Part shown: piece after piece, positions 26,377-58,332 of the stretch
Layout of the letters: every line of letters begins with the position of its first letter
Position numbering within the stretch: position 1 is the stretch's first letter
Sequence record: NC_048203.1
Origin: Escherichia phage vB_Eco_mar003J3
Reading direction: 5' to 3' (one strand)
DNA length: 64,000 nucleotides
Made by a program: the position numbers and the translations under genes
The notes under the pieces: model-generated
Told to the model about the DNA's origin: nothing
The model's database searches: none
Seen by the model: the letters and a program-made list of their open reading frames with translations, nothing else

Positions 26377-26386
26377 ATATCCTCCT

Positions 26387-28168: not shown

Positions 28169-28251
28169 ACAATCTCCTTCTTTAAAAATGTATTTGCTTA
28201 GGTCCCTCTATTTTGCTATAATATATTTATAAATTAAACAGAGGAACGATT

Positions 28252-28518: not shown

Positions 28519-29288
28519 TTAGTATAAAGTAAAAAGATCTCGAAGTAAACAAAAATTTTTATTTCTGGGATGAGGTACAGGTAGCAAACACAATGCAAGA
28601 TGAAGAAAAGCCCTTTCAGGAACCTGTTAACTTTGAAATAGATCCCAGGACTAAAGCAATACATGATGCGATTAACGAAATCATTCAAGACGTCATAGAA
28701 GATACAATATAAGACGTGATGGGAACATCCTTCTTACTAGAAGAATCCGGCTTCGACGAAGTAATGGATCTAATCGGGACAGTCGTAATGGTTCGTGCAA
28801 TTGCTAGGGTATTCCAAATACCAAGACTATAGGAGAAGCAAAGAGATGTCAGACGACAACAGAAGAAAGAACAGACGCGGGGAAGTGTACGAAAGTTGGA
28901 TAAATAGTTTCGGATTCGGAACTGTATTATTCTTTATCTTTGTACTCTTTTGGTTAGCGGCTATGGCGGGGTGGTTATAATGGAAGTAATAATTATTGCT
29001 TTACTAGTTGTGGTAATTATCGGGCAGTGCATTTTAGATAACCACTTAACTCGTATCGAACGTAAGCTGCGGGGAGACAAGTAATGTTTAGTTTTGTAGC
29101 TATCTTCATTATTGGGGTACTTGCGGGAATCTTCGGAACACTCGGGGCGATTAATAAGCATCGTGAATATATTGTGGGAGTATCGCGGGAGCTTTCGGAA
29201 AGGGAGCGGAGGTTTGCAGAAAAACGGGAGGAGTTCGAGCGAGAGTGGAGTGCTGGCTCAAGAAGCTCTCGTAGGAGATTTAAGATAG

Positions 29289-29786
29289 ATGACAAATCAT
29301 AAGCCCTTACTTCCCTTAGAGGAATACCAGAGTAAGTTCGATTATGATCCAGAAACAGGTATATTTACTTGGAACTCGGGGAGTCGTAGAGGTAAACCAG
29401 CTGGCGGCCGTAATGACTCGGGCATTTCCCTTTCTATGGGCAGCAAAGGCAAGTATAAGGCCCACCGAGTGGCGTGGTTATACATGACAGGGGAAGATCC
29501 AGGAGATCTTCTAATAGATCATAAAGATCAAGACCCCTGGAACAATAAATGGAACAACTTACGAAAAGCTACGAATAAAGAAAATAGTAATAACTCTTCC
29601 GGATGGGAAAATAAATCCACAGGTGTAAAAGGGATATATAAGAGGACAGAAGGGAAGTTCGAGGCGAGAATACGTGCTAACGGGGAAAGAATCAACGTAG
29701 GTACATTTGGTAGCCTCGAGGAAGCTGAAAGTGCGATAAGGGAAGCACGTGAGAAAGTATGTGGTGAGTTCACAAACCACGGTTAA
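29289..29786 (+). CDS. HNH homing endonuclease with AP2-like DNA-binding domain
   Basis: IDHKDQDPWNNKWNNLRKATNKEN HNH motif; GVKGIYKR...FEARIRANGERINVGTFGSLEEAE AP2-like; opposite strand to neighbours. Confidence 0.7.
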   Translation: MTNHKPLLPLEEYQSKFDYDPETGIFTWNSGSRRGKPAGGRNDSGISLSMGSKGKYKAHRVAWLYMTGEDPGDLLIDHKDQDPWNNKWNNLRKATNKENSNNSSGWENKSTGVKGIYKRTEGKFEARIRANGERINVGTFGSLEEAESAIREAREKVCGEFTNHG

Positions 29787-29959
29787 TAGCGCTAATTTGA
29801 AAATCTTGAAATTTCATAAGATTACACATGCGGATGTGCTCAGTGGGACTGGAGATAGTTAGTAGTCTAATAATCCCCCTGTGTTACTATTACCATGCTA
29901 ACTGTTTCATCCTGTAACCATTTTTTAATTACAGGATGAAACTATTTTATTTTTAATTG

Positions 29960-30694
29960 TTAGGCAACTTTTAATTTATCAATGAATTGTTGCGGAGCGG
30001 TACTATAGTCTCCCCTTTCTTCCTCAGTCATACCCTGCCAGCACATTTCTAAGCGCTGGCAAAGATATTGATAATCATTATCATCATCTAACGATTCATC
30101 AATAAAGGTTTCACCGATCAATGCTACGCCGATTGATAGGATATCGTTAACGGCTTGGGCGTCCAGTGTTTTGAATCCAGCACTTGCCGCCACCGATAAT
30201 ACGCCTTTATGATCATCAATCATCGTAAAATCAGCGTTTGGATATAGCTGTTTAAATAGTTCAAAGTAATAGCTTTTGTATACAGCGTCTTTGCTGTGGT
30301 ATATTTCGCTAACCTTATCCGCTTCAAAGTATTTGTGTAATGTATCGCGGGAGAATACGCGGATATTGCTATTTCCGCGCCCTCGCAAGCCTTGTTTACG
30401 CAAATAAAAGTAATCGCTTTTAGACATAAGGCGCGCGGTACAAATAACATTTAAAGTATTTGCATCATTCATACATTGGCGCATATATTCAACCAACGGC
30501 AATAAAGAATCCTGCATAATTAAATCATGTTTACAGGCTTCGCGGGAATACTTATTTAAATTTAAATTCCCGTTATCATCAAAGCAAGGCGCTACACGAT
30601 GGAAAGAATTAATGATTGTGCCGTCCAGATCCCAAATCATGACGCGGGAAATATGCGGGAAATTATGGGTAATATTCGTTTTAACTTGATTCAT
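29960..30694 (-). CDS. dmp: HAD-family 5'-deoxynucleotidase (T5 Dmp-like)
   Basis: 244 aa; HAD motif I WDLDGT near N-terminus. Confidence 0.55.
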   Translation of the reverse strand: MNQVKTNITHNFPHISRVMIWDLDGTIINSFHRVAPCFDDNGNLNLNKYSREACKHDLIMQDSLLPLVEYMRQCMNDANTLNVICTARLMSKSDYFYLRKQGLRGRGNSNIRVFSRDTLHKYFEADKVSEIYHSKDAVYKSYYFELFKQLYPNADFTMIDDHKGVLSVAASAGFKTLDAQAVNDILSIGVALIGETFIDESLDDDNDYQYLCQRLEMCWQGMTEEERGDYSTAPQQFIDKLKVA

Positions 30695-30774
30695 TTGTTA
30701 CATTCTCCATTTAAGGGATCTAGGTTAATTCAGCATTACCCGCTATTTATAAGCGGGTAATAATAAATTAACTA

Positions 30775-31167
30775 TTAAAGACCATACGCCAACGCATCAG
30801 CGATAAAACTAATATCCTCACCTGATACACTGGAACGAATCCCCGCGCAAGTGTAGACCTTTGCAGACATAAGAGCATTATCAAGGCAAGCGGGGCATGG
30901 CGCGACAACTGCAAACGCTAGACCTGATTTTACAGCGTCAATAATAACAGTTTGCTCTTTTACGGTATCAATATAAACGCCTTTTGCTTTTGTATGGCTT
31001 GACGCTTTACCGGTAATGTATGCAAATGTTGTTACCTGTAGCGCCTCGTTAAAGTCTAGCAGTTCATCAATAATATGACCCGATTCAACGTGATAACGCT
31101 CGCCATTAGAATAAACTAGAACGATGGAAGAAGTAGCGTGATCAAAAGGAATGTTTTGGTTTTTCAT
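30775..31167 (-). CDS. A2: pre-early protein (T5 A2-like)
   Basis: 130 aa, immediately downstream of A1-like gene. Confidence 0.4.
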   Translation of the reverse strand: MKNQNIPFDHATSSIVLVYSNGERYHVESGHIIDELLDFNEALQVTTFAYITGKASSHTKAKGVYIDTVKEQTVIIDAVKSGLAFAVVAPCPACLDNALMSAKVYTCAGIRSSVSGEDISFIADALAYGL

Positions 31168-31242
31168 GTTTAAAACTCCAGATTATTTAATTAACTTTTT
31201 CGGGAATATAAGCGGGGAATATTCCCCGCTGATTAAATTTAA

Positions 31243-32907
31243 TTAGGCAAAGAATTTGCCATTTTTGAAATCAATCAAGGTACGTTGACCGTTTGCATAT
31301 GTAATTAAATGCGTTTGCGTCCAGCTTGACGCGCCAACGTTGTAACCCATATCGAGACTACCAGCAACGCCAGCGGTATAAACGCCGCCGTATATACTAG
31401 CCGTGTGAGTGTGGCCCGTGTTGAGGCGTCCTAACTTTTTAAACTGTTTAGGATTGCCCCGACTGCCGTTAATGCCGTTGTGACCATGTACACCGCATTC
31501 AATTCCTGCAATCTTGAAAGATTGGTCAGTAGTCAGGAAAATAGCGTTAAATTCGCAACCTGCAACGTTTCTAAGCGCATAATCCAATACGTTAAAGGTA
31601 TCATCTTGTTTTGCAATAGCCGCATAAATCGCAGCGTTTAGGCTGTGATACAGTTCGGCGTTTGCGGGGTCGTCTTTAATGTTAGCGTTACGATCATCAA
31701 GCCAACGGGATAACGCCAAATCATGATTGGATTCCACGATGATTGTTTGAGAAAAATCGCGCTCCATTGACTCCAACACGCGACCGGTATCAATGAGATC
31801 GTCAATAACTTTATCACGTCCGGCGGCGTATTGTTTCGCAAGGAATACACCACTTGCGCGGTTGTGATGGTTACGCGATGTAAAATCATGCACATCATGA
31901 ATAAACTGATATTTCGGTTTAAGAATATCAAGCAAGCTATTTTCGCCCACCCATGATGCAACGGCGCATTCATCATCTAATTTTTCGGCGTGAATATCGC
32001 CATATTGCAAGCCTAGAACATGATCGGACGTTTCAAAACATCCGGTAGGCATAGCGCAAATATTCAAATCATAAAACATTCCGCTTTCATCCATTGTTTC
32101 AAGCTGGCGAACAAAAAATTCGCCGTCGTCGTCAAATTCTACCAACAAAGCGCCGTAATTATGCAGCGCCTCAGCTTTTTGACCTGCTTTCTGCTGAATA
32201 TAGTTTTTAAGTGTAGCCGTTCCGGTGGAGTACATACGGCGCACTACTTCACCTTTTAACGCTGGCACACTTTCAGCGGTAATTTTAGCGTGACCAATTG
32301 CCAGACCTTCAATATTTAAAGCCGTGGCGGTTTCTGCGAATCCTGAAAGCGGATAGTCTGCCGTTGGTAACACGTTAATTTCAGCCATGAAAGCAAAACG
32401 GCGATTATTTAAAAATACGTTTTTCTCGCAAATATATTTATTAAATGCGGGATCGTATTTAATGCCTTCGTTACCTTCTCCATTCTGGAAGCCGTTTTTA
32501 TTGTAAATGAATTTACTAACCAGCAATTCACCGCCGATATATTCAGCGAATTGCTCAAGCACTTTCAAAAAGTTTTTATGTGGGAAAGTATTATTTTGAA
32601 TCGACGTTAGAATAAAACGGCGACCGGATTTAACTTCCCACTGTTCCACGGTACTAGAAACAATCCCCGCCGCTTCTGGGCGATCATCATTTTTAATCGC
32701 CTTTTCAGCTTTTGCCGCTTTCGGTTTCGCTGGCTTATTTGCTTCCAGCCAGTCACAAATTGCGGTCGAATGTTTCGGCGTGTCATAAACAGCTTTTGAA
32801 ATATCGTCACAAACTTCCAATTTAGTAGCGCGTAAACGCTTGCCATAGAAATTAAAATCAGCGGCAAGTTTAGTGATCTGGGACTGTTTTTCTGCGGAAA
32901 TATTCAT
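31243..32907 (-). CDS. A1: pre-early metallophosphatase-fold protein (T5 A1-like)
   Basis: 554 aa (T5 A1 about 556 aa); calcineurin-like motifs GDIHAE, GHNG, GHTHTAS. Confidence 0.6.
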   Translation of the reverse strand: MNISAEKQSQITKLAADFNFYGKRLRATKLEVCDDISKAVYDTPKHSTAICDWLEANKPAKPKAAKAEKAIKNDDRPEAAGIVSSTVEQWEVKSGRRFILTSIQNNTFPHKNFLKVLEQFAEYIGGELLVSKFIYNKNGFQNGEGNEGIKYDPAFNKYICEKNVFLNNRRFAFMAEINVLPTADYPLSGFAETATALNIEGLAIGHAKITAESVPALKGEVVRRMYSTGTATLKNYIQQKAGQKAEALHNYGALLVEFDDDGEFFVRQLETMDESGMFYDLNICAMPTGCFETSDHVLGLQYGDIHAEKLDDECAVASWVGENSLLDILKPKYQFIHDVHDFTSRNHHNRASGVFLAKQYAAGRDKVIDDLIDTGRVLESMERDFSQTIIVESNHDLALSRWLDDRNANIKDDPANAELYHSLNAAIYAAIAKQDDTFNVLDYALRNVAGCEFNAIFLTTDQSFKIAGIECGVHGHNGINGSRGNPKQFKKLGRLNTGHTHTASIYGGVYTAGVAGSLDMGYNVGASSWTQTHLITYANGQRTLIDFKNGKFFA

Positions 32908-33005
32908 ATATTAATTAACTCCATTAAAGGGATTTAAAACATTTTAAAGCTGGCAATATTGCCAAATATAACGCCGTTTATTTACAGCGTTATAATTTGC
33001 AACAT

Positions 33006-33221
33006 TTAACTAATCGGCATTAGGCTAGAACTTACACCAAGAGCAACGGCGGCAATAAAACAAATAAGACCTAAACTCTTTGCGAATTTAGATTTATGCT
33101 TAAAATAATATGAATCTAAATCATTTTGAAAATAAGCGAATAATAATGAGGCCGCCATAATAAACAAGCCTAGAATGAGGGATTCACTAGGAAAGAAGAT
33201 CATTTTAATAACTCCGGTCAA
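33006..33221 (-). CDS. small membrane protein (2 TM)
   Basis: 71 aa, two hydrophobic helices. Confidence 0.45.
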   Translation of the reverse strand: MTGVIKMIFFPSESLILGLFIMAASLLFAYFQNDLDSYYFKHKSKFAKSLGLICFIAAVALGVSSSLMPIS

Positions 33222-33260
33222 AGGGAAATTATAGCGGGGAATATTCCCCGCTGATTAAAT

Positions 33261-33695
33261 TTATTCGCCTGCGGCCTGTTTTACTTCATCGACAACGCCT
33301 AACAATTGCGCCATGGCTTCCAGCGTTTCCAGTTTTGCACTTTCCAAACTTGCCAGATCGTCGGCGTCTTTGATAATGCCTGAATCAATGGCGTGTTTAG
33401 CGATAACGCGCACATAGTGAGCTTTACGGATTGAGCTACCGCCGCCAACTTTGCGCGGCTTGTCGCTTTTCTGGTAGGCTTTTGCACTGGTCAATTTAGA
33501 ACGTACAGAGACAGGGGAAGCCGCGCCAACGGCGGCGGCGATTTCTTTTAAGCCGTCACTGTTAGCAAATTCAACGCCATTTTTTTCGATCATTTCAGAA
33601 TACAAAGAGACAGCTTTCTGCGTGTTTTCTTCATTCCAAGAGAATTTTGCGGCTTTTTCGGTTTTAACGTTAGACATAGTAAATACTCCGTTCAA
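33261..33695 (-). CDS. pre-early hypothetical protein
   Basis: 144 aa ORF in A1 operon direction. Confidence 0.5.
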   Translation of the reverse strand: MNGVFTMSNVKTEKAAKFSWNEENTQKAVSLYSEMIEKNGVEFANSDGLKEIAAAVGAASPVSVRSKLTSAKAYQKSDKPRKVGGGSSIRKAHYVRVIAKHAIDSGIIKDADDLASLESAKLETLEAMAQLLGVVDEVKQAAGE

Positions 33696-33776
33696 TTATT
33701 AATTAAGGGATTATGATTAACTAATGTTAATCGTTATATTGCCCATATTTCAGGGCAATATAAAAGTAACACTAAT

Positions 33777-34028
33777 TTATGCTATGGCTTGCCATTTATC
33801 ATCTTTCTGAATGACCTTTACAACGTCGCCAGATTTAACACGGACGGTATAAATCGGCTTGCCGTGGTTACTGCGTTCCGTTTCCGCGTAGACCGCTTCA
33901 ATCTTATCAAAGGGATCAAGCGCCGCACCTTTAATACGTTCGGCTTTTCCGGTTAATTCATCCGTTTTAGTTACAAAAGGAATGAATACAGATTGACCTA
34001 CTTTCGGCGCGGTAATAACGTTTTGCAT
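33777..34028 (-). CDS. pre-early hypothetical protein
   Basis: 83 aa ORF. Confidence 0.45.
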   Translation of the reverse strand: MQNVITAPKVGQSVFIPFVTKTDELTGKAERIKGAALDPFDKIEAVYAETERSNHGKPIYTVRVKSGDVVKVIQKDDKWQAIA

Positions 34029-34192
34029 TTTTAATACTCCGGTTTATTGGGGATTATTCCACAATAGCGCCTCGATACTTTGAAACGCTATTAGATTATA
34101 ATCCGCTAGGAGTTAGCCTAAACATTACCGTTATCCAAATTGTTAAAGAGCAGTTACTACGGGGAACATCTTAAAACCTATCGGCTAGCGTG

Positions 34193-34402
34193 TCAAGCGT
34201 TTTTTAAACTTTTTTCGATTTGATGGGAGTTATATAAATCAATCATTATATTACGCCACACCATTTCCAGCCCTTGTTGCTTGCCTTTCTTGTATTGCTT
34301 GAATCTGTATTTTACAGATCGTTGCGCTACTGTCAACAAATTTTTTGTTCTGCTATCAAGCGACTTGATAGGCTTGCCAGTGATCAAAAGCGTTTGTTTC
34401 AT
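34193..34402 (-). CDS. pre-early small basic protein
   Basis: 69 aa, Lys/Arg-rich; first gene after the 1.1-kb regulatory region. Confidence 0.45.
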   Translation of the reverse strand: MKQTLLITGKPIKSLDSRTKNLLTVAQRSVKYRFKQYKKGKQQGLEMVWRNIMIDLYNSHQIEKSLKNA

Positions 34403-34808
34403 ATCGTCGATTCCTTATAATATCTAAGTTTACCGCCGATAGGCTTTAAGATGTTCCCTAATTTTTAAAGAGCATGGCAGGGTTTTGAAAGGTCAAACAG
34501 ACTGTCAATCGCTGTTATCCCCGCCGTGTAGTTCGTCATTGCCGCCCTACGTGATAAATAATAGGAGAATACCGAGAAGGGCGCAAGCGTATTTTTGTAA
34601 AGAAACGTAAAGAAAACCACTACTCGCAAACGTCCAGCGGCGCATTAAATTTAATGAAACGGGCGCGCGAATAACACCAAAACAACCATTTTAGCAAGTA
34701 ATTTTTTCATTTATATCTGCTCTAGGGTACTTGACAAAATCTAAAATCCTCGTGGTGAGGTTTTCTCGGTGTACCCCTTATGATTGCCTATCTTTTCCTT
34801 TGAGGCGC

Positions 34809-34835
34809 TTAGAATGCGTTACAGAGCGTTTTAGA
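34809..34835. repeat. 27-bp element TTAGAATGCGTTACAGAGCGTTTTAGA, copy 1
   Basis: identical to 38232..38258. Confidence 0.9.
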
Positions 34836-35165
34836 CCCTGTTAATAACTTATACAAAAAGCAAAAATGAAATTTAATGAGTTATCCACTTGATTTTTCAA
34901 AAAAGTATTTTCTGCTGTTATTTTTCATTGACAAATAAGTCTGGACGTGTATCAGATCGTTAGCAGACTAATAATCGCTAGGATGATAATCACGCTGGTG
35001 GATTGTAACGGCTGAAATCATTAGCAGACTATTAATCAAGGAAAATCCTATTAGCCAACTAACTATTTCATAATATATAATATACATATAAATTAATGAG
35101 AAATAATAAATATGAGAAACTATCGGGCTAAGTGAGAACCACTATCATTTAACTTATACCCAAAG

Positions 35166-35174
35166 TTATCCACA
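35166..35174 (+). promoter_or_regulatory. DnaA box TTATCCACA
   Basis: perfect 9-mer consensus. Confidence 0.6.
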
Positions 35175-35214
35175 GCACAAAATAACTTGACGCAATAGGC
35201 GACGTTTTGGCGAC

Positions 35215-35223
35215 TTATCCACA
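35215..35223 (+). promoter_or_regulatory. DnaA box TTATCCACA
   Basis: perfect 9-mer consensus, 49 bp from first box. Confidence 0.6.
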
Positions 35224-35243
35224 GACTTATATACAGGTTATCC

Positions 35244-35263
35244 TACTGTATAAATATACAGGG
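35244..35263. promoter_or_regulatory. LexA (SOS) box-like palindrome followed by TAGAAT -10-like hexamer
   Basis: TACTGTATAAATATACAGGG: CTGT-N8-ACAG core, 18/20 to TACTGTATATATATACAGTA. Confidence 0.5.
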
Positions 35264-35510
35264 TAGAATGGTAGCAGTAACAACCGCAATCAAATTTAAG
35301 CGGCCTAGAACGCGCTACACGGCGTTTTCTCACTGCTGCCCTTATTATAATAAAGCCTTGTGTACACTTACAGAGTGCTAGAAATAGAAAACGCGCGGAT
35401 ATCATAAAAACAGGCAGTAAGCAAGGAATAAAAAACCTTTTCTTTTTCCTTGCCCCTAGCGAACAAATATCTATATCATTCACTCACCGATTAACGAGGG
35501 AGACAAAGAA

Positions 35511-36536
35511 ATGTCTACTGTAAGAATTGCAGTACCAGCAAACGCCACTATTATTAAGGGTAGTTTGCGCAACCTGCTAGACGGATCAAGTCTAGCAAGC
35601 CTACAGCTAGACGGATCAAGTCTAGCAAGCCTACAACATACGGCGGCAATGGTTGAAAAGATTCACGATGAAATTTTAGATAATAATGATACTCATTATT
35701 GTTTAAGTGATTTCACACAATTACTAGACCCTACCCGCGTTCTAGTGCTTTACAACCGTGACTATCACATCATGCGAAATCAGCGGGGAAGAGATATTGA
35801 TTTTATCATTGTAGGTCACGACGAAAAAAGCTATATTGCCCGTGGTTACAATGTACAAGAAAAAGAAATGGTTTTCGCTACTCGCGTAAATGGTATTAAT
35901 TCCAGCGATGTAGAAGATTTACTATCTAGTATTTGTGGCGAATTGACAAGCGCCATTAAACGTGCTGATAGTTACGCAATCGAAACAACTGGCGTATTGT
36001 GTTTTGGACGCGCTAGAGGTAACATGTTGATCCCTAACGATTATTTAGAGTATGGGAATGAATCAAACGTTGCAAACGCTGGATTTACACTTTTACCGCT
36101 TGACAATGTAACAAAACAGGCTGTACAATCTCAAACTTCAAGCGCAAATGCGCAAACTACTGAAAATAAAGGAAATATTATGTCTAAAGTATCTTCTATC
36201 GTTGCTGCTAATAAATCCGCCGTTGTAAACGCTGCTAAACTGGAAGTGGGTAAAATTGCACTGACTCAAGTCACAAAAGTAGCGGCGAAAAAAGCACCGT
36301 TTATGATTAAAGGGTATATTGATACGCCGATTGGTCGTGTAGTGATCGCTAACCTGCTGAGTGTAGCGGTTGACCAGTACGCCCCGACTAATGCGAAAGC
36401 TAAAGCGGTAGCAGGCGCGGCAATGGAAGCGGCAATGTTGGAAATGGTACAAAGTTTCAATATTGCTGAAATGATCGATGAAATGGTAAAAGGTATTGAC
36501 ATTTCAACCTTTACCCAAAATGCTGAAAGCGAGTAA
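35511..36536 (+). CDS. hypothetical protein with internal tandem duplication and Ala/Val-rich C-terminal region
   Basis: 341 aa; RBS GAGGGAG; rho-independent terminator downstream. Confidence 0.6.
   Translation: MSTVRIAVPANATIIKGSLRNLLDGSSLASLQLDGSSLASLQHTAAMVEKIHDEILDNNDTHYCLSDFTQLLDPTRVLVLYNRDYHIMRNQRGRDIDFIIVGHDEKSYIARGYNVQEKEMVFATRVNGINSSDVEDLLSSICGELTSAIKRADSYAIETTGVLCFGRARGNMLIPNDYLEYGNESNVANAGFTLLPLDNVTKQAVQSQTSSANAQTTENKGNIMSKVSSIVAANKSAVVNAAKLEVGKIALTQVTKVAAKKAPFMIKGYIDTPIGRVVIANLLSVAVDQYAPTNAKAKAVAGAAMEAAMLEMVQSFNIAEMIDEMVKGIDISTFTQNAESE
35577..35636 (+). repeat. tandem 30-bp duplication (29/30 identical) inside CDS
   Basis: ctagacggatcaagtctagcaagcctaca[g/a] twice; encodes LDGSSLASLQ x2. 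Confidence 0.9.
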
Positions 36537-36564
36537 TAATTAGTCTAATGTAAAGTTTTGTAAA

Positions 36565-36590
36565 GGTCGCCCTAATCGGCGGCCTTTTTT
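36565..36590 (+). terminator. rho-independent terminator
   Basis: ggtcgcc-ctaatc-ggcggcc followed by TTTTTT. Confidence 0.65.
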
Positions 36591-36654
36591 GTTATAATGC
36601 CTTTACACCGAAACGGTGGATTGAAAATTTTCCCCGATTTCTAGGAGGCGTTAA

Positions 36655-36882
36655 ATGGTACATTCATCATCTTCTGCAATTTTTAATGGTATGGAATGGG
36701 TATCCGTTCCCACTATTGTAAGCGTTATGGTTTCGGAGTTTGGGATTGGTAAAACTTATGTTACCATTCAGGAGCTTTACGACAATGACAAGATTGATCA
36801 GCAAACAGCCGGATTTTTGCTGGATGAATTGAAAGCTAACCACTGCACCAAAAAGCAAGCGGCAAAAATTGTTTTAATGTAA
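36655..36882 (+). CDS. hypothetical small protein
   Basis: 75 aa; strong RBS CTAGGAGG 7 nt upstream. Confidence 0.55.
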   Translation: MVHSSSSAIFNGMEWVSVPTIVSVMVSEFGIGKTYVTIQELYDNDKIDQQTAGFLLDELKANHCTKKQAAKIVLM

Positions 36883-36930
36883 TTAATAACGGGGCGTTAC
36901 TTTCGCCCCTAATTTCTAGGAGCTAATAAA

Positions 36931-37080
36931 ATGGTTATTTTTCGATCAGTTCTAGCAGGTATCTTGGGCGCTATTTTATCGTTGTTTGCAATAGCTTTCG
37001 GTGTTCATGCCGTTATTATCGGCGCGGGTATCGCGGGGTTTTCTTACCTGTTAGGCTGTATGACTGGTAAAGGGGGATAA
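36931..37080 (+). CDS. 49-aa hydrophobic glycine-zipper membrane peptide (not in ORF track)
   Basis: ATG at 36931 preceded by TCTAGGAGC; MVIFRSVLAGILGAILSLFAIAFGVHAVIIGAGIAGFSYLLGCMTGKGG; stop 37078..37080. Confidence 0.5.
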   Translation: MVIFRSVLAGILGAILSLFAIAFGVHAVIIGAGIAGFSYLLGCMTGKGG

Positions 37081-37082
37081 AA

Positions 37083-37295
37083 ATGTTAAAAAATGTAAGC
37101 CTTGCCCGTTCTAAAGGTTTTAAGCTGGTGGATGTTAACACGTTCGAGCGTCCAGATTGTAAAATCGAATATGTAGCACGCAACAAAAACGCGTTTCGTG
37201 TTACAGAAAAGAAATTTGACAAGCGCGGCAATTTGGTAGCCGAAACGGTTAAACACTTTGCCACCTTTTACGCTGCGTTTCGGGGAGTGTTATAA
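37083..37295 (+). CDS. hypothetical small protein
   Basis: 70 aa, starts 2 nt after the membrane peptide stop. Confidence 0.5.
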   Translation: MLKNVSLARSKGFKLVDVNTFERPDCKIEYVARNKNAFRVTEKKFDKRGNLVAETVKHFATFYAAFRGVL

Positions 37296-37296
37296 A

Positions 37297-37641
37297 ATGG
37301 TAATTTACGAGGGCAACCGATTTGTAACTAATTGCCGTCCGGCATTATTAGCAAACTATTTAAATCAGCTTTCACCAGTTTATAAAGGCGTGGTTAATAT
37401 CTATGAGGGCAAAGCACATTATAAAATTTCTGCCGTTGTCGCCCGTGAACTAGCGTTTCAATTTTTAACTTTTGGGTCTTGTGACGTTCAGGTTATGGGG
37501 GAAGCGTTAATAGCGGAAAATGAAAATGAATTTATTGACATTTTCCGCAAAGTATGTACAGAGCGCCTGATTATGAAAGGCGCGTATATTCAATCAACCG
37601 CTGAAAGTATCGAAACAGCGTTTCGAAAGGTGGCGCAATGA
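37297..37641 (+). CDS. hypothetical protein (likely start at internal ATG 37297 rather than 37258)
   Basis: RBS GGGGAG upstream of 37297; stop of upstream gene at 37293..37295. Confidence 0.5.
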   Translation: MVIYEGNRFVTNCRPALLANYLNQLSPVYKGVVNIYEGKAHYKISAVVARELAFQFLTFGSCDVQVMGEALIAENENEFIDIFRKVCTERLIMKGAYIQSTAESIETAFRKVAQ

Positions 37642-37823
37642 CTAGAAATGAAGCTGTTAAAGCTATGTTAGAAGGTAAAAAAGTAACTCATCGTTATTTT
37701 TCCATGCATGAATATTTATTCATGAAATATGAAGTGATCACCACGGAGGATGGTTATAAATTTAATCATGAATTTTATAGCCGTGAAATGTTTAATGATG
37801 GCTGGCAGCTTTATTATGAATAG
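37638..37823 (+). CDS. hypothetical small protein
   Basis: 61 aa; ATGA start/stop overlap with upstream gene. Confidence 0.5.
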   Translation: MTRNEAVKAMLEGKKVTHRYFSMHEYLFMKYEVITTEDGYKFNHEFYSREMFNDGWQLYYE

Positions 37824-37949
37824 CTGGTGGCGAAAAACACAAAGCCATAAATCTAATAATACCGCTGGGAAACATTCCCAGCGTTTACGATTTGGTAATG
37901 GCTTCACAATGATATTGATAATCATTCTCATTCTAGGAGCAATGGCGTT

Positions 37950-38144
37950 ATGAGTGATAAAATTGTTGTAACTAAAACTACTGTTACCGTTGATACTTTC
38001 TTTGTGCCTGATACGCTGGAAAATCGGCAAGCGGTGGAGCGTGGCGATTATGATAAAGTGATTTATGATAACGATGGTTACTATCAACATTTGGTAGACT
38101 CCTACGGCGAAAGCGAAAAGATCACACATCGACTACCAGACTAA
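37950..38144 (+). CDS. hypothetical small protein
   Basis: 64 aa; RBS TAGGAGC upstream; terminator downstream. Confidence 0.5.
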   Translation: MSDKIVVTKTTVTVDTFFVPDTLENRQAVERGDYDKVIYDNDGYYQHLVDSYGESEKITHRLPD

Positions 38145-38150
38145 TAATAA

Positions 38151-38180
38151 CGGGGCGCAACTATCGGCCCCGTCTTTTCT
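38151..38180 (+). terminator. rho-independent terminator ending the plus-strand cassette
   Basis: cggggc-gcaactatcg-gccccg then TCTTTTCT. Confidence 0.65.
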
Positions 38181-38231
38181 GGCCTTCCTCAAATTTCCCC
38201 TTATTAAAATACCTCCGCCAAAAATAAACGC

Positions 38232-38258
38232 GTTAGAATGCGTTACAGAGCGTTTTAG
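38232..38258. repeat. 27-bp element TTAGAATGCGTTACAGAGCGTTTTAGA, copy 2
   Basis: identical to 34809..34835. Confidence 0.9.
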
Positions 38259-38289
38259 AGCTATATTAGAGTTATTCACTACGCAGGAA

Positions 38290-38309
38290 TACTGTATAAA
38301 TATACAGTA
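38290..38309. promoter_or_regulatory. LexA (SOS) box-like palindrome followed by TAGAAT
   Basis: TACTGTATAAATATACAGTA: 19/20 to E. coli LexA consensus. Confidence 0.5.
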
Positions 38310-38390
38310 GAATAACCTGTTGATAAGTCTGTTGATAACGCCCCAAAATCGCTAGGATTTTGTCAAGTCAAATCGTGCTGTTAATAAACC

Positions 38391-38399
38391 TGTGGATAA
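38391..38399 (-). promoter_or_regulatory. DnaA box TTATCCACA (reverse orientation)
   Basis: plus strand tgtggataa. Confidence 0.55.
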
Positions 38400-38430
38400 C
38401 TTAAATAACAGTGTTTCTCACTTCGCTTTG

Positions 38431-38575
38431 TAAATGCGAGTCATTCTCATTATCATTAGCGTTTCCCTTCCTAAATGCAAATCATTCTCATTCGTATTCC
38501 GGTAGTCAAATGATAACTGTTCTCATTCGCATTCAACTTCTCAAATGCGAATCATTCTCATTATCATTCGCATTT
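38431..38575. repeat. three copies of AAATGC(G/A)A(G/A)TCATTCTCATT motif; third copy is a hairpin AAATGCGAAT...ATTCGCATTT
   Basis: copies at 38431..38459, 38471..38498, 38541..38575. Confidence 0.8.
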
Positions 38576-38606
38576 CGGCAGGCAGGGCAATTTGCCCTGC
38601 GCTTTT

Positions 38607-39207
38607 GTGCAAATCCGACATTTGCCCCCACGGATTACGTGCCAGTGTGCATGTGCGAATCCGACAATTTTTGGTAGTGTGCAAATCCGATGGGAAATAT
38701 TTTTTATATGTGCGAATCCGACAATGAATTTTCCTAAAAACTCCAGCAATCCGCAACTGCGATGCAATCCAGCTGGATTTACTAGAATATGTGCAAAACC
38801 GACAAGTGTTAAGGTGTGCGAATCCGACAAGATTTTTGTGACTTCGATTGGAGGGTGTGTGATTGTGTGGGTTTGGGGAGAAGTGCGAATCCGATGAGAT
38901 TTTGGGAGGAACTACGGAAGGAGCAGCGGTGATGGTGCTTTAGCACCGATTTGCTGCATTTTTGGGGATAATGCGGGATGTTTTGGCTAGAATTGAGATT
39001 AGTGGAGATAAAGCGAAATTTTATTAGCAAAATGGGGCAAAATCGCTTGACAAGTGAAAATTCCTGTGGCTCTAAAAACTCAGGCAATCATGGGCCTTCG
39101 GCCCGAAATAATGCTGCTATTTTCAGTGTTCCTAAAAACTTTGGAGACTCCTATCAATGTGCAAATCCGACCATAAATTTCTAGAAACATAATGTGCAAA
39201 TCCGATA
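38607..39207. repeat. array of 9 direct copies of 14-bp motif GTGCRAATCCGAYN with irregular spacing (injection-stop-like region)
   Basis: copies at 38607, 38653, 38679, 38710, 38791 (variant), 38816, 38883, 39159, 39194; no ORF with RBS; also CCTAAAAACT x3 and AACCGCCCT x3 nearby (39071..39300). Confidence 0.8.
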
Positions 39208-39739
39208 GCAATTTCCAGAAATGTGTTTTGGAAAAATGTCTCCTAGAAATAACCGCCCTCCCTATAACCGCCCTGTATAGGAAACCGCCCTAGGATATGT
39301 AACGTTGGAGAGAAACTGCCCTAGAATGCGTGAGAAACAGATTTAAAGTTTAGTGTAAACTCTAGAGTTAATGCTCAACTATTCCTAGAAACTTAGGAGT
39401 CTACTAGAAAGTGTTGTGCCATCCTAGCAGATGAGCGGCAACCGGTGTATCATCTTGAACACAAATATTGCCTTTAAATATTATAAGGTAAATAAAAGTT
39501 AATATACCCCCATTTCATGAGAGTTAGCCCCTCTAGGCGCGTGCGATTTGATACATCCTCCTGAGTCTCGGGGAGGAAGAACAATTGACGAGAACCTGCA
39601 AGCAGAACCGTCATCAAGTATTTTCCTACGAGGAATGATGTAAATCTACGGCCTAGAGGTAAAAACAAGTTGATGTTTTTAATCTATGAGATTATTATAA
39701 CATGCAGCTCAAATAATGTCAAGAAGATTTTGCTAACGT

Positions 39740-40465
39740 TTATAGATCGTGATTGACTTTGAGTATGACTCCCTTCGATGCCATGAAAAGGAATGTTGCT
39801 AGGTAAGATGACTCGGAATTTAGCGCAGAATAATCTACACTTCCTCTAGGTCTAGTTTCTTGTTTAGTGTCAAGAATTGTTTCGATATCAAACTTAACAG
39901 ATCTTGCAACTTTTCTAGCTTGTTCAGGATCACGTAAGATTTCAAAGTGAGCAGCATCTAGAATATGGTTAGATGATGTTGATTCGTCAACTATACTTAG
40001 ATGAACCTGCGCAAGTGTAGATACGATTCCTAGCTTTAATTCAGATAGAGAAGAATATGGTGGTTCTACTTTCTTTGTAAGTCTAGGGAGATGATCGTAT
40101 TTACATTGCTTTTGAGGAATCATCAGAATATTAGGATAACATTCTAAACATGACTTTGCATTTCCTTCTTTAAAATGCGGGAGTTCTTTATCTGCAAAGA
40201 CGTGGAATGAATCTGCTGAAAATCCTTTAATAGTAGGATCAACAGTTTGAATCAGACGACGTAAACTAATATATGAAGGAGCTAATGTGACTTCTTCTGC
40301 ATCTTTATTATATTTAGGTTGCCCACTAGCATTAATATATGCTGGATAAAACTCTGCACAAAATGCTACTGCATGAGCTTCTAACTCATTAAGTTCGGAA
40401 ACATTCTTTCCATTACAAGCTCTAGCTAACTTAATAATCTCTGCTAAATTCTTTTTTATACTCAT
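39740..40465 (-). CDS. early hypothetical protein
   Basis: 241 aa; first minus-strand gene after repeat array. Confidence 0.5.
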   Translation of the reverse strand: MSIKKNLAEIIKLARACNGKNVSELNELEAHAVAFCAEFYPAYINASGQPKYNKDAEEVTLAPSYISLRRLIQTVDPTIKGFSADSFHVFADKELPHFKEGNAKSCLECYPNILMIPQKQCKYDHLPRLTKKVEPPYSSLSELKLGIVSTLAQVHLSIVDESTSSNHILDAAHFEILRDPEQARKVARSVKFDIETILDTKQETRPRGSVDYSALNSESSYLATFLFMASKGVILKVNHDL

Positions 40466-40770
40466 ATATAATCATCCGGTTTTGTTTTAGTTTTTGTTAC
40501 TGATTTCACTGAAGGATCTAACTTAATCCACGTAAACCCTAGCTGCTCAGATAAGTGAGATATATTTCTAGGTGTTATTTTTATATTTGGAGGTAACTTA
40601 AATACTAGGTCTTTAAGTAACTTCATATCATCTGAACCAATGAAGAGAATATACTGCATATCTTCTTTTTGTTCATATTCGTTTTCAGATAATGTACTAA
40701 CTCCGACTGTATGTTTATTGAGTGTGGCCACCTTACAGCGGCCTACAGTAAACTGAGTAATTATATCCAT
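40462..40770 (-). CDS. early hypothetical protein
   Basis: 102 aa, 4-nt overlap with neighbour. Confidence 0.5.
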   Translation of the reverse strand: MDIITQFTVGRCKVATLNKHTVGVSTLSENEYEQKEDMQYILFIGSDDMKLLKDLVFKLPPNIKITPRNISHLSEQLGFTWIKLDPSVKSVTKTKTKPDDYI

Positions 40771-41381
40771 TAACGACCTCTAGCCTTATCTGCATCAATA
40801 GCTTCGAATACTTTCGTTAACATTTCTTCAAGCTCACCTTCTTTGCTAGGATTGCTCAAACGAATAGTATATGAGTTCCTAGAAACTCCTGAGTCTTCTT
40901 GTGCTCCGCGATCTTTTGCAAAGCCCATCATTGCAACGCCAGCTTTATTCCACTCGTCTACGCTAGATGCTTCCCCAAATTTATATGATTGCGTATTGCT
41001 TACCACGCCACCACAAGGAACATTGTGCATATCCGACATTAATCTTTTATCAGAATTATTCAGCATTGCGATTGGCCCTGACTGCCACGGATCCCGAATA
41101 GTCACTGGAGTACTAGGGCGATTCACCTCAGTCTTCACGAGTTTGTATCCAGCATCGATTAGTGCATTAATCAGATTATCAGCCGGGATACGAGCCGTGC
41201 CAAAGATAGCACGAGCATTCATAAGCTTAGCCTGAAATTCCTTGCAACCTTGAAGATCAGTGTGCAAAAACGACAGTTGCATAGATTTAAACTGTACTGT
41301 AGCAGTCAGATCTTTAAAGCTGTAATCCCATGTGTCGAGTTCATGATCTGCAACTACTTTAATGGTTTGTTGTGTAAACAT
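40770..41381 (-). CDS. early hypothetical protein
   Basis: 203 aa. Confidence 0.5.
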   Translation of the reverse strand: MFTQQTIKVVADHELDTWDYSFKDLTATVQFKSMQLSFLHTDLQGCKEFQAKLMNARAIFGTARIPADNLINALIDAGYKLVKTEVNRPSTPVTIRDPWQSGPIAMLNNSDKRLMSDMHNVPCGGVVSNTQSYKFGEASSVDEWNKAGVAMMGFAKDRGAQEDSGVSRNSYTIRLSNPSKEGELEEMLTKVFEAIDADKARGR

Positions 41382-41566
41382 TATCTATTCTCCAGTTTAT
41401 CTAACAGCTTACGAGCTGCGATATTATGTTGTTTAATTTCTCGGTTAAGAATTTCATTTTCACTATTTAATTCTAGATTCTTGGTATTAAGACTACTACA
41501 GCAAACCACTAACCCTAGAACTGCCACTAGAGACGCTACTAATATAACGAGAAATAATATTTCCAT
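41381..41566 (-). CDS. small membrane protein
   Basis: 61 aa, N-terminal TM helix. Confidence 0.4.
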   Translation of the reverse strand: MEILFLVILVASLVAVLGLVVCCSSLNTKNLELNSENEILNREIKQHNIAARKLLDKLENR

Positions 41567-41799
41567 TATTTAATTCCCATGTATCTTTTTAGGTATTCGA
41601 TGAAGTCTTCAGCTTTATGCTCTTGACTGCCCTGAGCCACGAATAACTTTAGAACCTCACGCTGTTGTTTAAGAACAGAGACTTCTCTCCGCAATTTCAC
41701 AGTATCGTCAATGATCTGGTTAGCATAACGAGTCTTGCGCACAGCGGTATTGATAGCGAAGACTAGTGCGATTAGTAAAATAATTAATACATATTCCAT
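41566..41799 (-). CDS. small membrane protein
   Basis: 77 aa, N-terminal TM helix. Confidence 0.4.
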   Translation of the reverse strand: MEYVLIILLIALVFAINTAVRKTRYANQIIDDTVKLRREVSVLKQQREVLKLFVAQGSQEHKAEDFIEYLKRYMGIK

Positions 41800-42086
41800 C
41801 AGTTACTCCAGATTAGCATCCAGCTCTTGTCGAACGTGGCTGCTCTGTTAATTAATTCGCCCATAGAAACGTTATTGTTGTCTATGGCTTCTTGTACAAA
41901 CTCTTTACCGAAATCATCTACTAGGTATTCTGTACCATTTATAATAATCTTGTAGAGAGTTGGGACTAAAGGATGTTGATGATTAAGAGGACTCTCGTTA
42001 ACAATTATCTCATTCCTTCCCCACGTCGTTTTGAACATTTTATGGGATAGTAGAGCTAATGGATTTGACCAGACTACGTACTCCAT
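41799..42086 (-). CDS. hypothetical protein
   Basis: 95 aa. Confidence 0.4.
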   Translation of the reverse strand: MEYVVWSNPLALLSHKMFKTTWGRNEIIVNESPLNHQHPLVPTLYKIIINGTEYLVDDFGKEFVQEAIDNNNVSMGELINRAATFDKSWMLIWSN

Positions 42087-42552
42087 CTTTCTTTAACTCC
42101 TGTTTTAACTTTTGATCTTTATTATACCAAATTATGTGCTCACCGTCAACTACAAATTTGTGGAAAGGTGCTGGTACGGTATACACTCCATATTCTGTTA
42201 AGCGTGTTACAACTTTATGAGCACATAATCGGCAACCATGTCCTTCTAAGTGAGACCGTGCAGTTTGTAAGAAGTAACCATCGTGATCTGGGCAATAGAT
42301 CTCAACCTGCTGTTGCATAGTTCTATACTTAACTCTTTCATATCCAAAGAACTTACCATGTGCTTCTACAGCTCTCCTGATAAAGATTAGATTAAGTGCA
42401 TCTTGCTGGAAGTCTATATGAAGTTGTTTGAGTTTAATTCTATTAATAGATCCATCTGATTTAGTGAATCTATTTATGGGAAACTGTAATGCTTCCTCAT
42501 AAAGTAATTCGTTTATTTTATCTCTCATAGTATACACGAAAGGCCAGAACAA
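42040..42552 (-). CDS. hypothetical protein with Cys/His cluster
   Basis: 170 aa; CPDHDG...HLEGHGCRLCAH. Confidence 0.45.
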   Translation of the reverse strand: MFWPFVYTMRDKINELLYEEALQFPINRFTKSDGSINRIKLKQLHIDFQQDALNLIFIRRAVEAHGKFFGYERVKYRTMQQQVEIYCPDHDGYFLQTARSHLEGHGCRLCAHKVVTRLTEYGVYTVPAPFHKFVVDGEHIIWYNKDQKLKQELKKDGVRSLVKSISSTIP

Positions 42553-57242: not shown

Positions 57243-57315
57243 TAGTTAGTAGTGGATTTGAACCACTGTAGTCGCTCCGTATGAAGGAGGTGCATAACCG
57301 CTCTGCCAACTAACT
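57243..57315 (-). tRNA. tRNA, anticodon CAU (Met or Ile-lysidine)
   Basis: hand-folded cloverleaf; T-arm AGTGG-TTCAAAT-CCACT; acceptor AGTTAGT/ACTAACT. Confidence 0.6.
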
Positions 57316-57321
57316 ATAATT

Positions 57322-57397: not shown

Positions 57398-57398
57398 A

Positions 57399-58324: not shown

Positions 58325-58332
58325 TTATTGGC

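What the first reader, a model, noticed from the sequence alone, without database searches (positions are those of the whole stretch)
39740..41381. First three early genes after the injection-stop-like array have no recognisable motifs
They are the first genes to enter the cell in the second DNA-transfer step and form a tightly overlapping operon (241, 102 and 203 aa). That position is typical for inhibitors of host nucleases or defence systems, but nothing in the sequence identifies a function.
Basis: inference. Interest (0 to 1): 0.4.

Follow-up and report, generated by a model that had tools for sequence, protein, structure and literature searches.

The report
Orphan early genes of T5-like phage
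These are three real but uncharacterised early genes of a T5-like phage: a counterpart of T5 gene 019 followed by two genes from a frequently swapped cassette at the end of an early operon, and no homology search or structure prediction reveals their function.

Summary
The window is an Epseptimavirus-like T5 relative assembled with its terminal repeat collapsed. The three ORFs exist exactly as described (minus strand, 1-nt and 4-nt overlaps) and evolve under purifying selection (dN/dS 0.06-0.17). The 203-aa protein is the orthologue of T5.019. The 241-aa protein belongs to a small, phage-only family that is always the last gene before the non-coding injection-stop region, and T5.018 is a distant relative. 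The 102-aa gene is present in some relatives and absent in others.

They are transcribed 203 -> 102 -> 241 as the distal half of a six-gene unit. Its promoter, conserved with an annotated T5 promoter, lies 2.4 kb further in, so entering first does not mean being expressed first.

Pfam, NCBIfam, PADLOC, PDB profile searches, a 1.84-billion-protein profile search, AlphaFold2 and Foldseek all gave nothing. T5.018 and T5.019 are dispensable in a published knock-down screen. The slot varies between relatives, carries homing-endonuclease insertions, and is degraded in two of them. This fits accessory host-interaction proteins. An anti-defence role is neither shown nor excluded. Interest is low.

Side finding: a consensus promoter and a ~200-nt rod-like structured RNA candidate lie directly downstream and are conserved across Demerecviridae.

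The parts
40770..41381 (-). 203-aa protein, orthologue of T5.019 (phrog_5271). The N-terminal ~137 aa are conserved, residues ~138-175 are hypervariable, and a C-terminal helix is conserved.
   Evidence: ORF. 72% identity to T5.019 over residues 1-137. PHROG E=2.8e-113. Alignment A1. dN/dS 0.11-0.12. AlphaFold2 mean pLDDT 54, with only residues 17-88 (beta-beta-beta-alpha-alpha-beta) at 64-74.
40462..40770 (-). 102-aa accessory protein (phrog_13456), present in some T5-like phages and absent in others.
   Evidence: ORF. PHROG E=4.6e-51. Found in 120 phage records, in allele groups at >=77%, ~44% and 29% identity. Absent from T5 and from L006-L009. dN/dS 0.17 against GSW6.
39740..40465 (-). 241-aa 'boundary' protein (phrog_8993). 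It is the last gene of the leftward early unit, next to the non-coding iss/terminal-repeat region.
   Evidence: ORF. PHROG E=3e-115. Only 28 clusters among 1.84 billion representatives, all 219-266 aa. No invariant residue across the family (A4). Same position in T5_ev219, Klebsiella phage Sealy and Erwinia phage KEY. Distant N-terminal homology to T5.018 (hhalign 77%, E=2e-5). dN/dS 0.06-0.14.
41381..42086 (-). Three upstream cistrons of the same unit: 95 aa (T5.022-like, 41799-42086), 77 aa (T5.021-like, 41566-41799) and 61 aa (T5.020-like, 41381-41566). The T5.020 and T5.021 counterparts are annotated in T5 as single-pass membrane proteins.
   Evidence: ORFs and overlaps. Same gene order as T5.022-T5.019. 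The 61-aa protein has a weak FtsL-like match (E=0.0068, below cutoff).
42121..42149 (-). Predicted early promoter TTGACG-17-TATAAT with an extended -10 (TG), inside the 170-aa (T5.023-like) gene. It would drive the six-gene unit.
   Evidence: 11/12 match to consensus. Aligns with the promoter annotated in T5.023 of NC_005859.
39694..39722 (-). Perfect sigma-70 consensus promoter TTGACA-17-TATAAT with an extended -10. It starts 18 nt after the stop codon of the 241-aa gene and reads toward the terminal repeat.
   Evidence: 12/12 match plus TG. Conserved in sequence and position in T5, T5_ev219, Seafire, Sealy and KEY and in 26 T5-like loci.
39480..39693 (-). Candidate ~200-nt structured RNA, which could equally be the 3' leader or terminator region of the early unit. 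Elements: A/U hairpin 39681-39660, long rod-like hairpin 39659-39531, 3' hairpin 39525-39507, then a U/A-rich tail. The palindrome AATCT-CAT-AGATT (39693-39681) overlaps the expected transcription start.
   Evidence: Minus strand -64.6 kcal/mol, z=-4.87, 0 of 200 shuffles as stable; plus strand -54.2, z=-2.95. Eight sequence types give the same architecture with z=-2.6 to -8.1. In the T5-type subgroup, 71 pairs, 3 compensatory pairs, and 99.8% of cells paired against 31-44% when slid. No Rfam match.
38391..39205 (.). Injection-stop-like non-coding array that includes the terminal-repeat end: a DnaA box, 35-nt tandem repeats and eight TGTGCRAAWCCGA repeats.
   Evidence: Colinear with T5 9287-10608 and Seafire 9119-10746. 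Repeat and DnaA-box architecture as described for T5 relatives in bioRxiv 10.1101/866236.

Best explanation
The three ORFs are the promoter-distal cistrons of a six-gene, translationally coupled early transcription unit in a T5-like phage. The unit would run from the promoter at 42149-42121 through the T5.022-, T5.021- and T5.020-like genes, then the 203-, 102- and 241-aa genes.

I think they most likely encode soluble accessory proteins that act by binding rather than by catalysis. Their target would be a host (or phage) macromolecule, during takeover or counter-defence. They would be useful only on some hosts.

The 203-aa protein (the T5.019 orthologue) is the conserved member. It has a fixed N-terminal domain and a hypervariable segment. 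The 102-aa and 241-aa genes occupy an exchangeable slot between T5.019 and a conserved downstream promoter.

Shown here: gene reality, coupling, promoter conservation, family distribution, lack of conserved catalytic residues in the 241-aa family, slot variability, and dispensability of the T5 counterparts.

Inferred only: the binding mode, the existence of a host target, and any counter-defence role.
For: - Real, constrained genes: dN/dS 0.06-0.17.
- Operon layout: overlaps TAATG and ATGA. The upstream promoter aligns with an annotated T5 promoter.
- Families confined to T5-like phages, with no fusions to known domains: 28 clusters of 219-266 aa among 1.84 billion representatives for the 241-aa family. 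All hits are phage or phage-like contigs of about 110 kb.
- No invariant residue across the 241-aa family, which argues against an enzyme.
- Near-neutral pI and negative hydropathy, so soluble proteins that are not DNA mimics.
- Dispensable: T5.018 and T5.019 are 'Not Fit' in CRISPRi-ART (PMC11879866, supplementary file 16).
- Natural loss: a frameshift in GSW6 and a C-terminal fragment only in SSP1.
- The slot content differs between relatives. The window has 102+241. T5 has T5.018 alone. Phage bastian has a 103-aa gene plus a T5.018-type gene that is 92% identical to T5's despite the different genus. L006 and T5_ev219 carry a T5orf172 homing-endonuclease gene inserted right after the gene.
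- Mosaicism: Seafire is 99.7-99.9% identical in the 102/241 genes but only 80-94% in the adjacent genes.
- Authors of the BF23 genome paper hold the same general view of unassigned T5-group early genes (PMC10644984).
Against: - There is no positive evidence for any target or activity.
- Both AlphaFold2 models are poor (mean pLDDT 52 and 54), so fold-level similarity to known inhibitors or enzymes was not really tested. The Foldseek results on these models are uninformative.
- The N-terminal 137 aa of T5.019 keep many invariant polar residues. The family is too shallow (>=55% identity) to say whether these are catalytic.
- Strict positional conservation of the 241-aa family next to the downstream promoter and RNA element could instead mean a cis-linked function.
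- 'Not Fit' in one laboratory host does not show conditional benefit elsewhere.
- No library of known anti-defence proteins was available to search.
Confidence: 0.45

Rival explanations
1. Cis-linked function. The 241-aa/T5.018 family works with the element next to it. It could regulate the consensus promoter through the palindrome at its start site, bind or chaperone the ~200-nt structured RNA, or act on DNA at the boundary between first-step and second-step transfer DNA.
For: The family member is always the last gene before the non-coding region in E. coli, Salmonella, Klebsiella and Erwinia phages, although the protein is only 24-32% identical between them. The promoter follows the stop codon by 18 nt in the window and is conserved in all of these phages. 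Gene type and RNA type travel together: bastian carries the T5.018-type gene together with the T5-type promoter and RNA.
Against: Linkage by descent explains the co-variation equally well. The promoter and RNA persist where the gene is truncated (SSP1 = L068). They also persist where a homing-endonuclease gene is inserted between gene and promoter (L006). No DNA- or RNA-binding domain was detected. T5.018 knock-down has no fitness effect.
Confidence: 0.15
2. Membrane-associated module. The three proteins act with the two small single-pass membrane proteins encoded just upstream (T5.020- and T5.021-like), for example in modifying the envelope or excluding superinfecting phages.
For: They share one translationally coupled unit with the 61-aa and 77-aa genes. 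The T5 counterparts of those genes are annotated as single-pass membrane proteins. The 61-aa protein has a weak FtsL-like match (E=0.0068).
Against: The three proteins are hydrophilic (hydropathy -0.25 to -0.44). The FtsL match is far below the curated cutoff. Sharing an operon is the only link.
Confidence: 0.1
3. Little or no present function. The 102-aa and 241-aa genes are drifting cargo carried along by recombination and homing-endonuclease activity at this junction.
For: Presence/absence polymorphism, a frameshifted copy and a truncated copy occur in relatives. T5orf172 endonuclease genes are inserted at the junction. The T5 counterparts are dispensable.
Against: Purifying selection is strong (dN/dS 0.06-0.17 at dS up to 1.07). 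Length and position are retained down to 24% identity across host genera.
Confidence: 0.07
4. Core replication, recombination or nucleotide-metabolism enzymes too diverged to recognise.
For: The genes lie in the early region, where such enzymes are encoded in T5 (PMC10644984). The T5.019 N-terminal domain has many invariant polar residues.
Against: No hit in Pfam, NCBIfam or the PDB, even with profiles. The 241-aa family has no invariant residue. The T5 counterparts are dispensable, whereas essential functions score as fit in the same screen. The genes are lost or degraded in some relatives.
Confidence: 0.03

Closest known systems
Bacteriophage T5 gene T5.019 product (YP_006847, phrog_5271), hypothetical protein
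   Same: 72% identity over the N-terminal 137 residues, the same length (202 vs 203 aa), and the same position directly after T5.020.
   Different: The C-terminal third is not alignable by BLASTP. Neither protein has a known function.
Bacteriophage T5 gene T5.018 product (YP_006846, phrog_8583), hypothetical protein
   Same: It occupies the same slot as the 241-aa gene: the last early gene before the iss/terminal-repeat region. The N-terminal ~110 residues are distantly related (hhalign 77% probability, E=2e-5).
   Different: 294 aa against 241 aa. It falls in a different PHROG, and the C-terminal half is unrelated. It comes with a different type of downstream promoter and RNA.
   Same: Encoded on DNA that enters the cell early, and dispensable on defence-free hosts.
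   Different: Ocr is promoter-proximal on the leading end and is a highly acidic DNA mimic (established knowledge). These genes are promoter-distal, have pI 6.0-7.8, and show no sequence similarity to any Pfam family.
T5 pre-early (first-step transfer) host-takeover genes (A1, A2, dmp, hdi, T5.015)
   Same: Small, mostly orphan, largely dispensable phage-specific genes acting on the host (bioRxiv 10.64898/2026.04.02.716235).
   Different: Those genes lie inside the terminal repeat and are expressed before the rest of the genome enters. Published work places protection against RecBCD and restriction there (PMC10644984), not in the genes studied here.
Rad (T5 ORF071), a retron inhibitor in the T5 early region
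   Same: It shows that an anti-defence gene can sit among T5 early genes and be lost in close relatives such as BF23 (PMC10644984).
   Different: It lies elsewhere in the early region. It was recognisable through a TOPRIM domain, whereas the present proteins have no recognisable domain. Direct similarity was not tested here.

Membership tests
phrog_5271 / T5.019 family (203-aa protein) | Significant full-length match to the family profile | tested here: met
   E=2.8e-113, residues 1-201 against profile positions 1-199 of 203.
phrog_5271 / T5.019 family (203-aa protein) | Same genomic position as T5.019 (directly after the T5.020-like gene in the leftward early unit) | tested here: met
   Gene order 95-77-61-203 aa matches T5.022-T5.019. 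72% identity to T5.019 over residues 1-137.
phrog_8993 (241-aa 'boundary' protein family) | Significant full-length match to the family profile | tested here: met
   E=3e-115, residues 1-240 against profile positions 1-241 of 242. 28 clusters found in the exhaustive profile search.
phrog_8993 (241-aa 'boundary' protein family) | Last gene of the early unit, abutting the non-coding iss/terminal-repeat region | tested here: met
   True in the window and in Seafire, T5_ev219, Sealy and KEY.
phrog_13456 (102-aa protein) | Significant full-length match to the family profile | tested here: met
   E=4.6e-51, residues 1-102.
DNA-mimic anti-restriction proteins (Ocr/ArdA type) | Strongly acidic protein (large net negative charge) | tested here: not met
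   pI 5.95, 7.82 and 6.71. Net charge at pH 7 is -2.2, +0.7 and -0.8.
DNA-mimic anti-restriction proteins (Ocr/ArdA type) | Sequence match to the corresponding Pfam families | tested here: not met
   No Pfam family reaches E<0.04, and none is related to these families.
Known anti-defence protein families in general (anti-CRISPR, anti-CBASS, anti-Thoeris, anti-retron and others) | Sequence or fold match to a curated anti-defence family | not testable with these tools
   No anti-defence library was available. PADLOC (defence proteins) gave no hit. The AlphaFold2 models are too poor for fold comparison.
   Pfam, NCBIfam and PDB profile searches were all negative.
Homing endonucleases (common at this junction in relatives) | HNH, GIY-YIG or T5orf172 domain | tested here: not met
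   None in the three window proteins. The domain is present in extra ORFs of L006 and T5_ev219 at the same junction.

The most novel reading that the evidence does not exclude
The boundary gene (241-aa/T5.018 family), the perfect consensus promoter directly after it, and the ~200-nt rod-like RNA that this promoter would produce may form one conserved, undescribed module of Demerecviridae. It would sit at the junction between first-step and second-step transfer DNA. It could be an RNA-protein regulator or decoy that controls events at the terminal-repeat boundary or counters a host system, with the variable protein alleles tracking the variable RNA types.
Probability: 0.1. Interest if true: 0.65.

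Novelty: already known. Interest (0 to 1): 0.25.

Why it matters
For the three genes themselves, little changes. They are already catalogued as hypothetical proteins in hundreds of T5-like genomes and remain without a function.

The useful outcomes are these:
- They are now tied to named T5 genes (T5.019 and, distantly, T5.018), for which knock-down data exist.
- Their transcriptional context is corrected.
- The segment between T5.019 and a conserved downstream promoter is identified as a hot spot of gene exchange. That makes it a sensible, small target for host-range and counter-defence screens in the BASEL and Salmonella T5-like collections.
- The conserved promoter and structured-RNA candidate next to them may be the more interesting object. 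If real, it would be a family-wide non-coding element at the boundary of the two-step DNA transfer.

Tried and rejected
Domain and family searches
- Pfam, NCBIfam and PADLOC on single proteins gave only sub-threshold noise (ORC5_C E=0.045, BphC_D1 0.098, cobJ 0.21).
- Pfam on every member of alignments A4 and A1 gave no consistent family. NELF-A_N appeared in 12 of 45 members at best E=0.029, which I treat as noise.
- PDB sequence searches with profiles A1, A2 and A4 and with the 102-aa protein: best E=0.63.
- Exhaustive profile search of 1.84 billion representatives with A2 found only family members.

Structure
- AlphaFold2 on A2 and A1 gave mean pLDDT 52.4 and 53.9.
- Foldseek against the PDB gave best E=0.95 and 3.6. 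Foldseek against BFVD returned only the family itself.

Other checks
- Acidic DNA-mimic idea rejected on pI.
- No paralogues in the window.
- Literature: no paper text mentions T5.018 or T5.019. HIDEN-SEQ and transposon-mutagenesis papers did not cover T5-like phages. The retron Eco2 paper was irrelevant to a T5 small RNA.

Technical dead ends
- The search for related loci with A4 failed for lack of a conserved stretch.
- One viral-contig scan was wasted on a wrong promoter spacer length.
- The corrected pattern is degenerate and mostly hits unrelated contigs, so hits were filtered by downstream sequence.

RNA
- Rfam gave only a spurious PrrF match (26.9 bits against a gathering score of 90).
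- RNAalifold on a MAFFT alignment across sequence types recovered only the 5' palindrome and the 3' hairpin, because the long stem is unalignable between types.
- A test of the closing helix alone was not significant against shuffles. The claim therefore rests on whole-structure z-scores and within-type covariation.
- The small ORF 39474-39668 (= Seafire_020) was rejected as a gene because its reading frame is not conserved in T5 or Sealy.
Full report
**What the window is.** Megablast of 39500-41600 finds 367 phage records, all T5-like (Demerecviridae). The best are Salmonella phages 9-29 and 1-19 and Escherichia phage SuperGirl at about 97% identity. Epseptimavirus seafire matches at 96%. The wider stretch 26000-40000 covers the receptor-binding protein, A1 and A2. 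The assembly therefore has the terminal repeat collapsed. Late genes run into the pre-early (first-step transfer) region, followed by the non-coding injection-stop region and then the early genes. Eight copies of TGTGCRAAWCCGA lie at 38606-39205 (0.02 expected by chance). Window 38168-39459 is colinear with T5 9287-10608, which contains the annotated iss and the LTR end, and with Seafire 9119-10746.

**The observation.** The three ORFs sit exactly where stated, on the minus strand, with junctions TAATG and ATGA. They are real genes:
- dN/dS is 0.06-0.14 for the 241-aa gene (dS 0.24-0.41).
- dN/dS is 0.11-0.12 for the first 137 codons of the 203-aa gene.
- dN/dS is 0.17 for the 102-aa gene (dS 1.07) (own Nei-Gojobori script).
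- tblastn finds them in 289, 438 and 120 phage records respectively.
- Identical or near-identical proteins are already in public databases as 'hypothetical protein'.

**Identity relative to T5.** In NC_005859 the leftward early genes next to the LTR are T5.018 (294 aa), T5.019 (202 aa), T5.020, T5.021 and T5.022.
- The 203-aa protein is the T5.019 orthologue: 72% identity over residues 1-137, with the C-terminal third not alignable.
- The upstream 61-, 77- and 95-aa ORFs correspond to T5.020-T5.022.
- T5 has no 102-aa gene.
- The 241-aa protein occupies the place of T5.018. Pairwise similarity is marginal. A profile of the 241-aa family matches T5.018 residues 39-162 with 77% probability, E=2e-5. 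T5.018 is therefore probably a divergent relative sharing only the N-terminal domain.

**Transcription context.** The strongest promoter-like sites on the minus strand are at 42149-42121 (11/12, extended -10) and at 39722-39694 (12/12, extended -10).
- The first aligns with the promoter annotated inside T5.023. It is followed by a GGAG ribosome-binding site and the T5.022-like gene.
- All six genes from 42086 to 39740 abut or overlap.
- The three genes are therefore the distal half of a six-gene unit, read 203 -> 102 -> 241. They enter the cell first but cannot be transcribed until DNA 2.4 kb further in has entered.
- Published work attributes protection against RecBCD and restriction in this phage group to pre-early genes, which act before the second transfer step (PMC10644984).
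- The positional argument for 'first-in inhibitors' is therefore weak.

**Search for function.** Everything came back negative:
- Pfam, NCBIfam and PADLOC gave nothing above noise.
- The PHROG families (5271, 13456, 8993) are all of unknown function.
- Profile searches against PDB sequences found nothing.
- A profile search of the 241-aa family against 1.84 billion representatives found only 28 clusters, all 219-266 aa with no extra domains.
- The 30-sequence alignment of that family has no invariant column. Only S23, L25, A32, D92 and P111 are nearly invariant. This argues against an enzyme.
- Scanning every member of both large families against Pfam gave no consistent hit.
- The AlphaFold2 models were poor (mean pLDDT 52 and 54). 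Only a small beta-beta-beta-alpha-alpha-beta unit in T5.019 residues 17-88 reaches moderate confidence.
- Foldseek found nothing in the PDB and only the family itself in BFVD.
- The proteins are hydrophilic and near-neutral (pI 6.0-7.8), so they are not Ocr-like DNA mimics.
- There are no paralogues in the window.

**Evidence on the kind of role.**
- Dispensability: in the CRISPRi-ART transcriptome-wide knock-down of T5, T5.018, T5.019 and T5.020-T5.023 are all classed 'Not Fit', whereas A1 and A2 are highly fit (PMC11879866).
- Natural degradation: phage GSW6 has a frameshift in the 241-aa gene. SSP1 keeps only a fragment equal to residues 150-241 (hhalign 98.9%).
- A variable slot: the stretch between T5.019 and the downstream promoter holds different genes in different relatives.
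  - The window and Seafire have 102+241.
  - L006 has the 241-aa gene without the 102-aa gene, plus a 242-aa T5orf172 endonuclease gene.
  - T5_ev219 has a 32%-identical 243-aa allele plus a T5orf172 gene.
  - Bastian (an Epseptimavirus) has a 44%-identical 103-aa gene plus a T5.018-type gene that is 92% identical to T5's.
  - Klebsiella phage Sealy and Erwinia phage KEY have other small genes plus 29-31%-identical family members.
- Mosaicism: Seafire is 99.7-99.9% identical to the window in the 102/241 genes but only 80-94% in the neighbouring genes.
- T5.019 itself has a fixed N-terminal domain, a hypervariable and indel-rich segment (about residues 138-175), and a conserved C-terminal helix.

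This pattern (narrow orphan families, strong constraint within alleles, rapid replacement between alleles, dispensability in the laboratory) is what is usually seen for accessory host-interaction genes. I commit to that reading at about 0.45. The mechanism is most likely binding rather than catalysis. Nothing here identifies a target. A dedicated anti-defence role remains a possibility within that explanation, not a result.

**Rivals.**
- The strict placement of the 241-aa/T5.018 family next to a conserved promoter and RNA element, and the joint inheritance of gene type and RNA type (bastian), allow a cis-linked function (0.15). Against this, the element persists where the gene is truncated or separated from it, and T5.018 is dispensable.
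- A joint role with the two small membrane proteins upstream rests on operon membership only (0.10).
- 'Decaying cargo' conflicts with the low dN/dS (0.07).
- A hidden replication or nucleotide-metabolism enzyme is not supported by any search and conflicts with dispensability (0.03).

**Side finding: promoter and RNA candidate.** A perfect TTGACA-17-TATAAT promoter with an extended -10 begins 18 nt after the 241-aa stop codon.
- It is conserved in place and sequence in T5, T5_ev219, Seafire, Sealy and KEY, although the flanking protein is only 24-32% identical. It is also present in 26 T5-like loci recovered from IMG/VR.
- The ~200 nt downstream differ almost completely between eight sequence types. 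Each still folds into the same layout: an A/U hairpin, a 95-130-nt rod-like hairpin, and a 3' hairpin followed by a U/A-rich tail. The z-scores run from -2.6 to -8.1.
- In the window, the minus strand folds at -64.6 kcal/mol (z=-4.87, 0 of 200 shuffles as stable) against -54.2 (z=-2.95) for the plus strand. The 3' hairpin, which uses G-U pairs, exists only on the minus strand.
- Within the T5-type subgroup, 71 predicted pairs include 3 with compensatory double changes (all from one lineage). 99.8% of cells are paired, against 31-44% when the partners are slid.

Caveats:
- A test of the closing helix alone was not significant.
- A cross-type alignment could not be made structure-aware.
- The 5' palindrome overlaps the expected start site and may be a protein-binding site rather than an RNA hairpin.
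- The element might simply be the terminator or 3' end of the early unit, since there is no other terminator after the 241-aa gene.
- There is no Rfam match, and no mention was found in the papers searched. That library is incomplete for the older T5 literature.

**Verdict.** The genes are already catalogued hypothetical proteins, so novelty is low and interest is 0.25. The adjacent promoter and RNA element deserves its own follow-up.

Noticed in passing
window 39480-39722, minus strand: A perfect sigma-70 consensus promoter (39722-39694) is followed by a ~200-nt region that folds into a long rod-like hairpin plus a 3' hairpin and a U/A-rich tail. Promoter and architecture are conserved in T5 and in Salmonella, Klebsiella and Erwinia T5-like phages, although the interior sequence is unalignable between types. 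It is not in Rfam. It is a candidate family-wide non-coding RNA, or alternatively the 3' end of the early unit.
   Followed up: partly
window 39681-39693: The 13-bp palindrome AATCT-CAT-AGATT lies directly after the -10 box, over the expected transcription start. T5-type phages have AACTC-TAT-GAGTT, with both half-sites changed symmetrically. It could be an operator for a dimeric regulator or a 5' RNA hairpin.
   Followed up: no
window 39406-39459: A ~55-bp block (minus strand TTCAAGATGATACACCGGTTGCCGCTCATCTGCTAGGATGGCACAACACTTTCT) is almost identical in T5, Epseptimavirus and other E. coli/Salmonella T5-like loci, while its flanks diverge. In T5 it lies about 330-400 bp to the right of the annotated LTR end. 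Its function is unknown.
   Followed up: no
window 38564-39668, minus strand; Seafire (L001) CDS 018-020: The DNA is colinear with Seafire at 89% identity, but the CDSs annotated there are not kept as ORFs. Seafire_018 (176 aa) is split into 88- and 92-aa ORFs over the repeat array. The Seafire_020 frame is absent in T5 and Sealy. These annotations are probably spurious.
   Followed up: partly
L006 3719-4447; L003 3189-3545: In some relatives a T5orf172/MUG113-domain gene (a GIY-YIG-like homing endonuclease) is inserted between the 241-aa homologue and the conserved promoter. This marks the junction as a site of mobile-gene insertion and exchange.
   Followed up: yes
L135 (phage GSW6) 1806-2532; L134 (phage SSP1) 3268-3576: The 241-aa gene is frameshifted near codon 131 in GSW6. 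In SSP1 it survives only as a 102-aa C-terminal fragment. Either these are natural pseudogenes or the records carry sequencing errors.
   Followed up: partly
window 41381-41566, minus strand: The 61-aa T5.020-like product (annotated in T5 as a single-pass membrane protein) has a weak, sub-threshold resemblance to the cell-division protein FtsL (TIGR02209, E=0.0068, 16 bits against a cutoff of 42).
   Followed up: no
window 35166-35223 and 38391-38399: Consensus DnaA boxes (TTATCCACA) occur twice at 35166-35223 and once at 38391-38399, next to TTATCAACA-type variants at 38318-38340. This matches the paired-box arrangement Davison described for iss regions. The genome-wide count of the loose consensus is not above chance (8 found, 7.6 expected).
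   Followed up: partly
window 57242-63374, minus strand: A cluster of 20 tRNA genes, as expected for the T5-type early region.
   Followed up: no
L133 (phage bastian) 2929-4100: An Epseptimavirus carries a T5.018-type gene that is 92% identical to that of T5 (a Tequintavirus), together with the T5-type promoter and RNA. The whole gene-promoter-RNA segment has therefore been exchanged between genera.
   Followed up: partly
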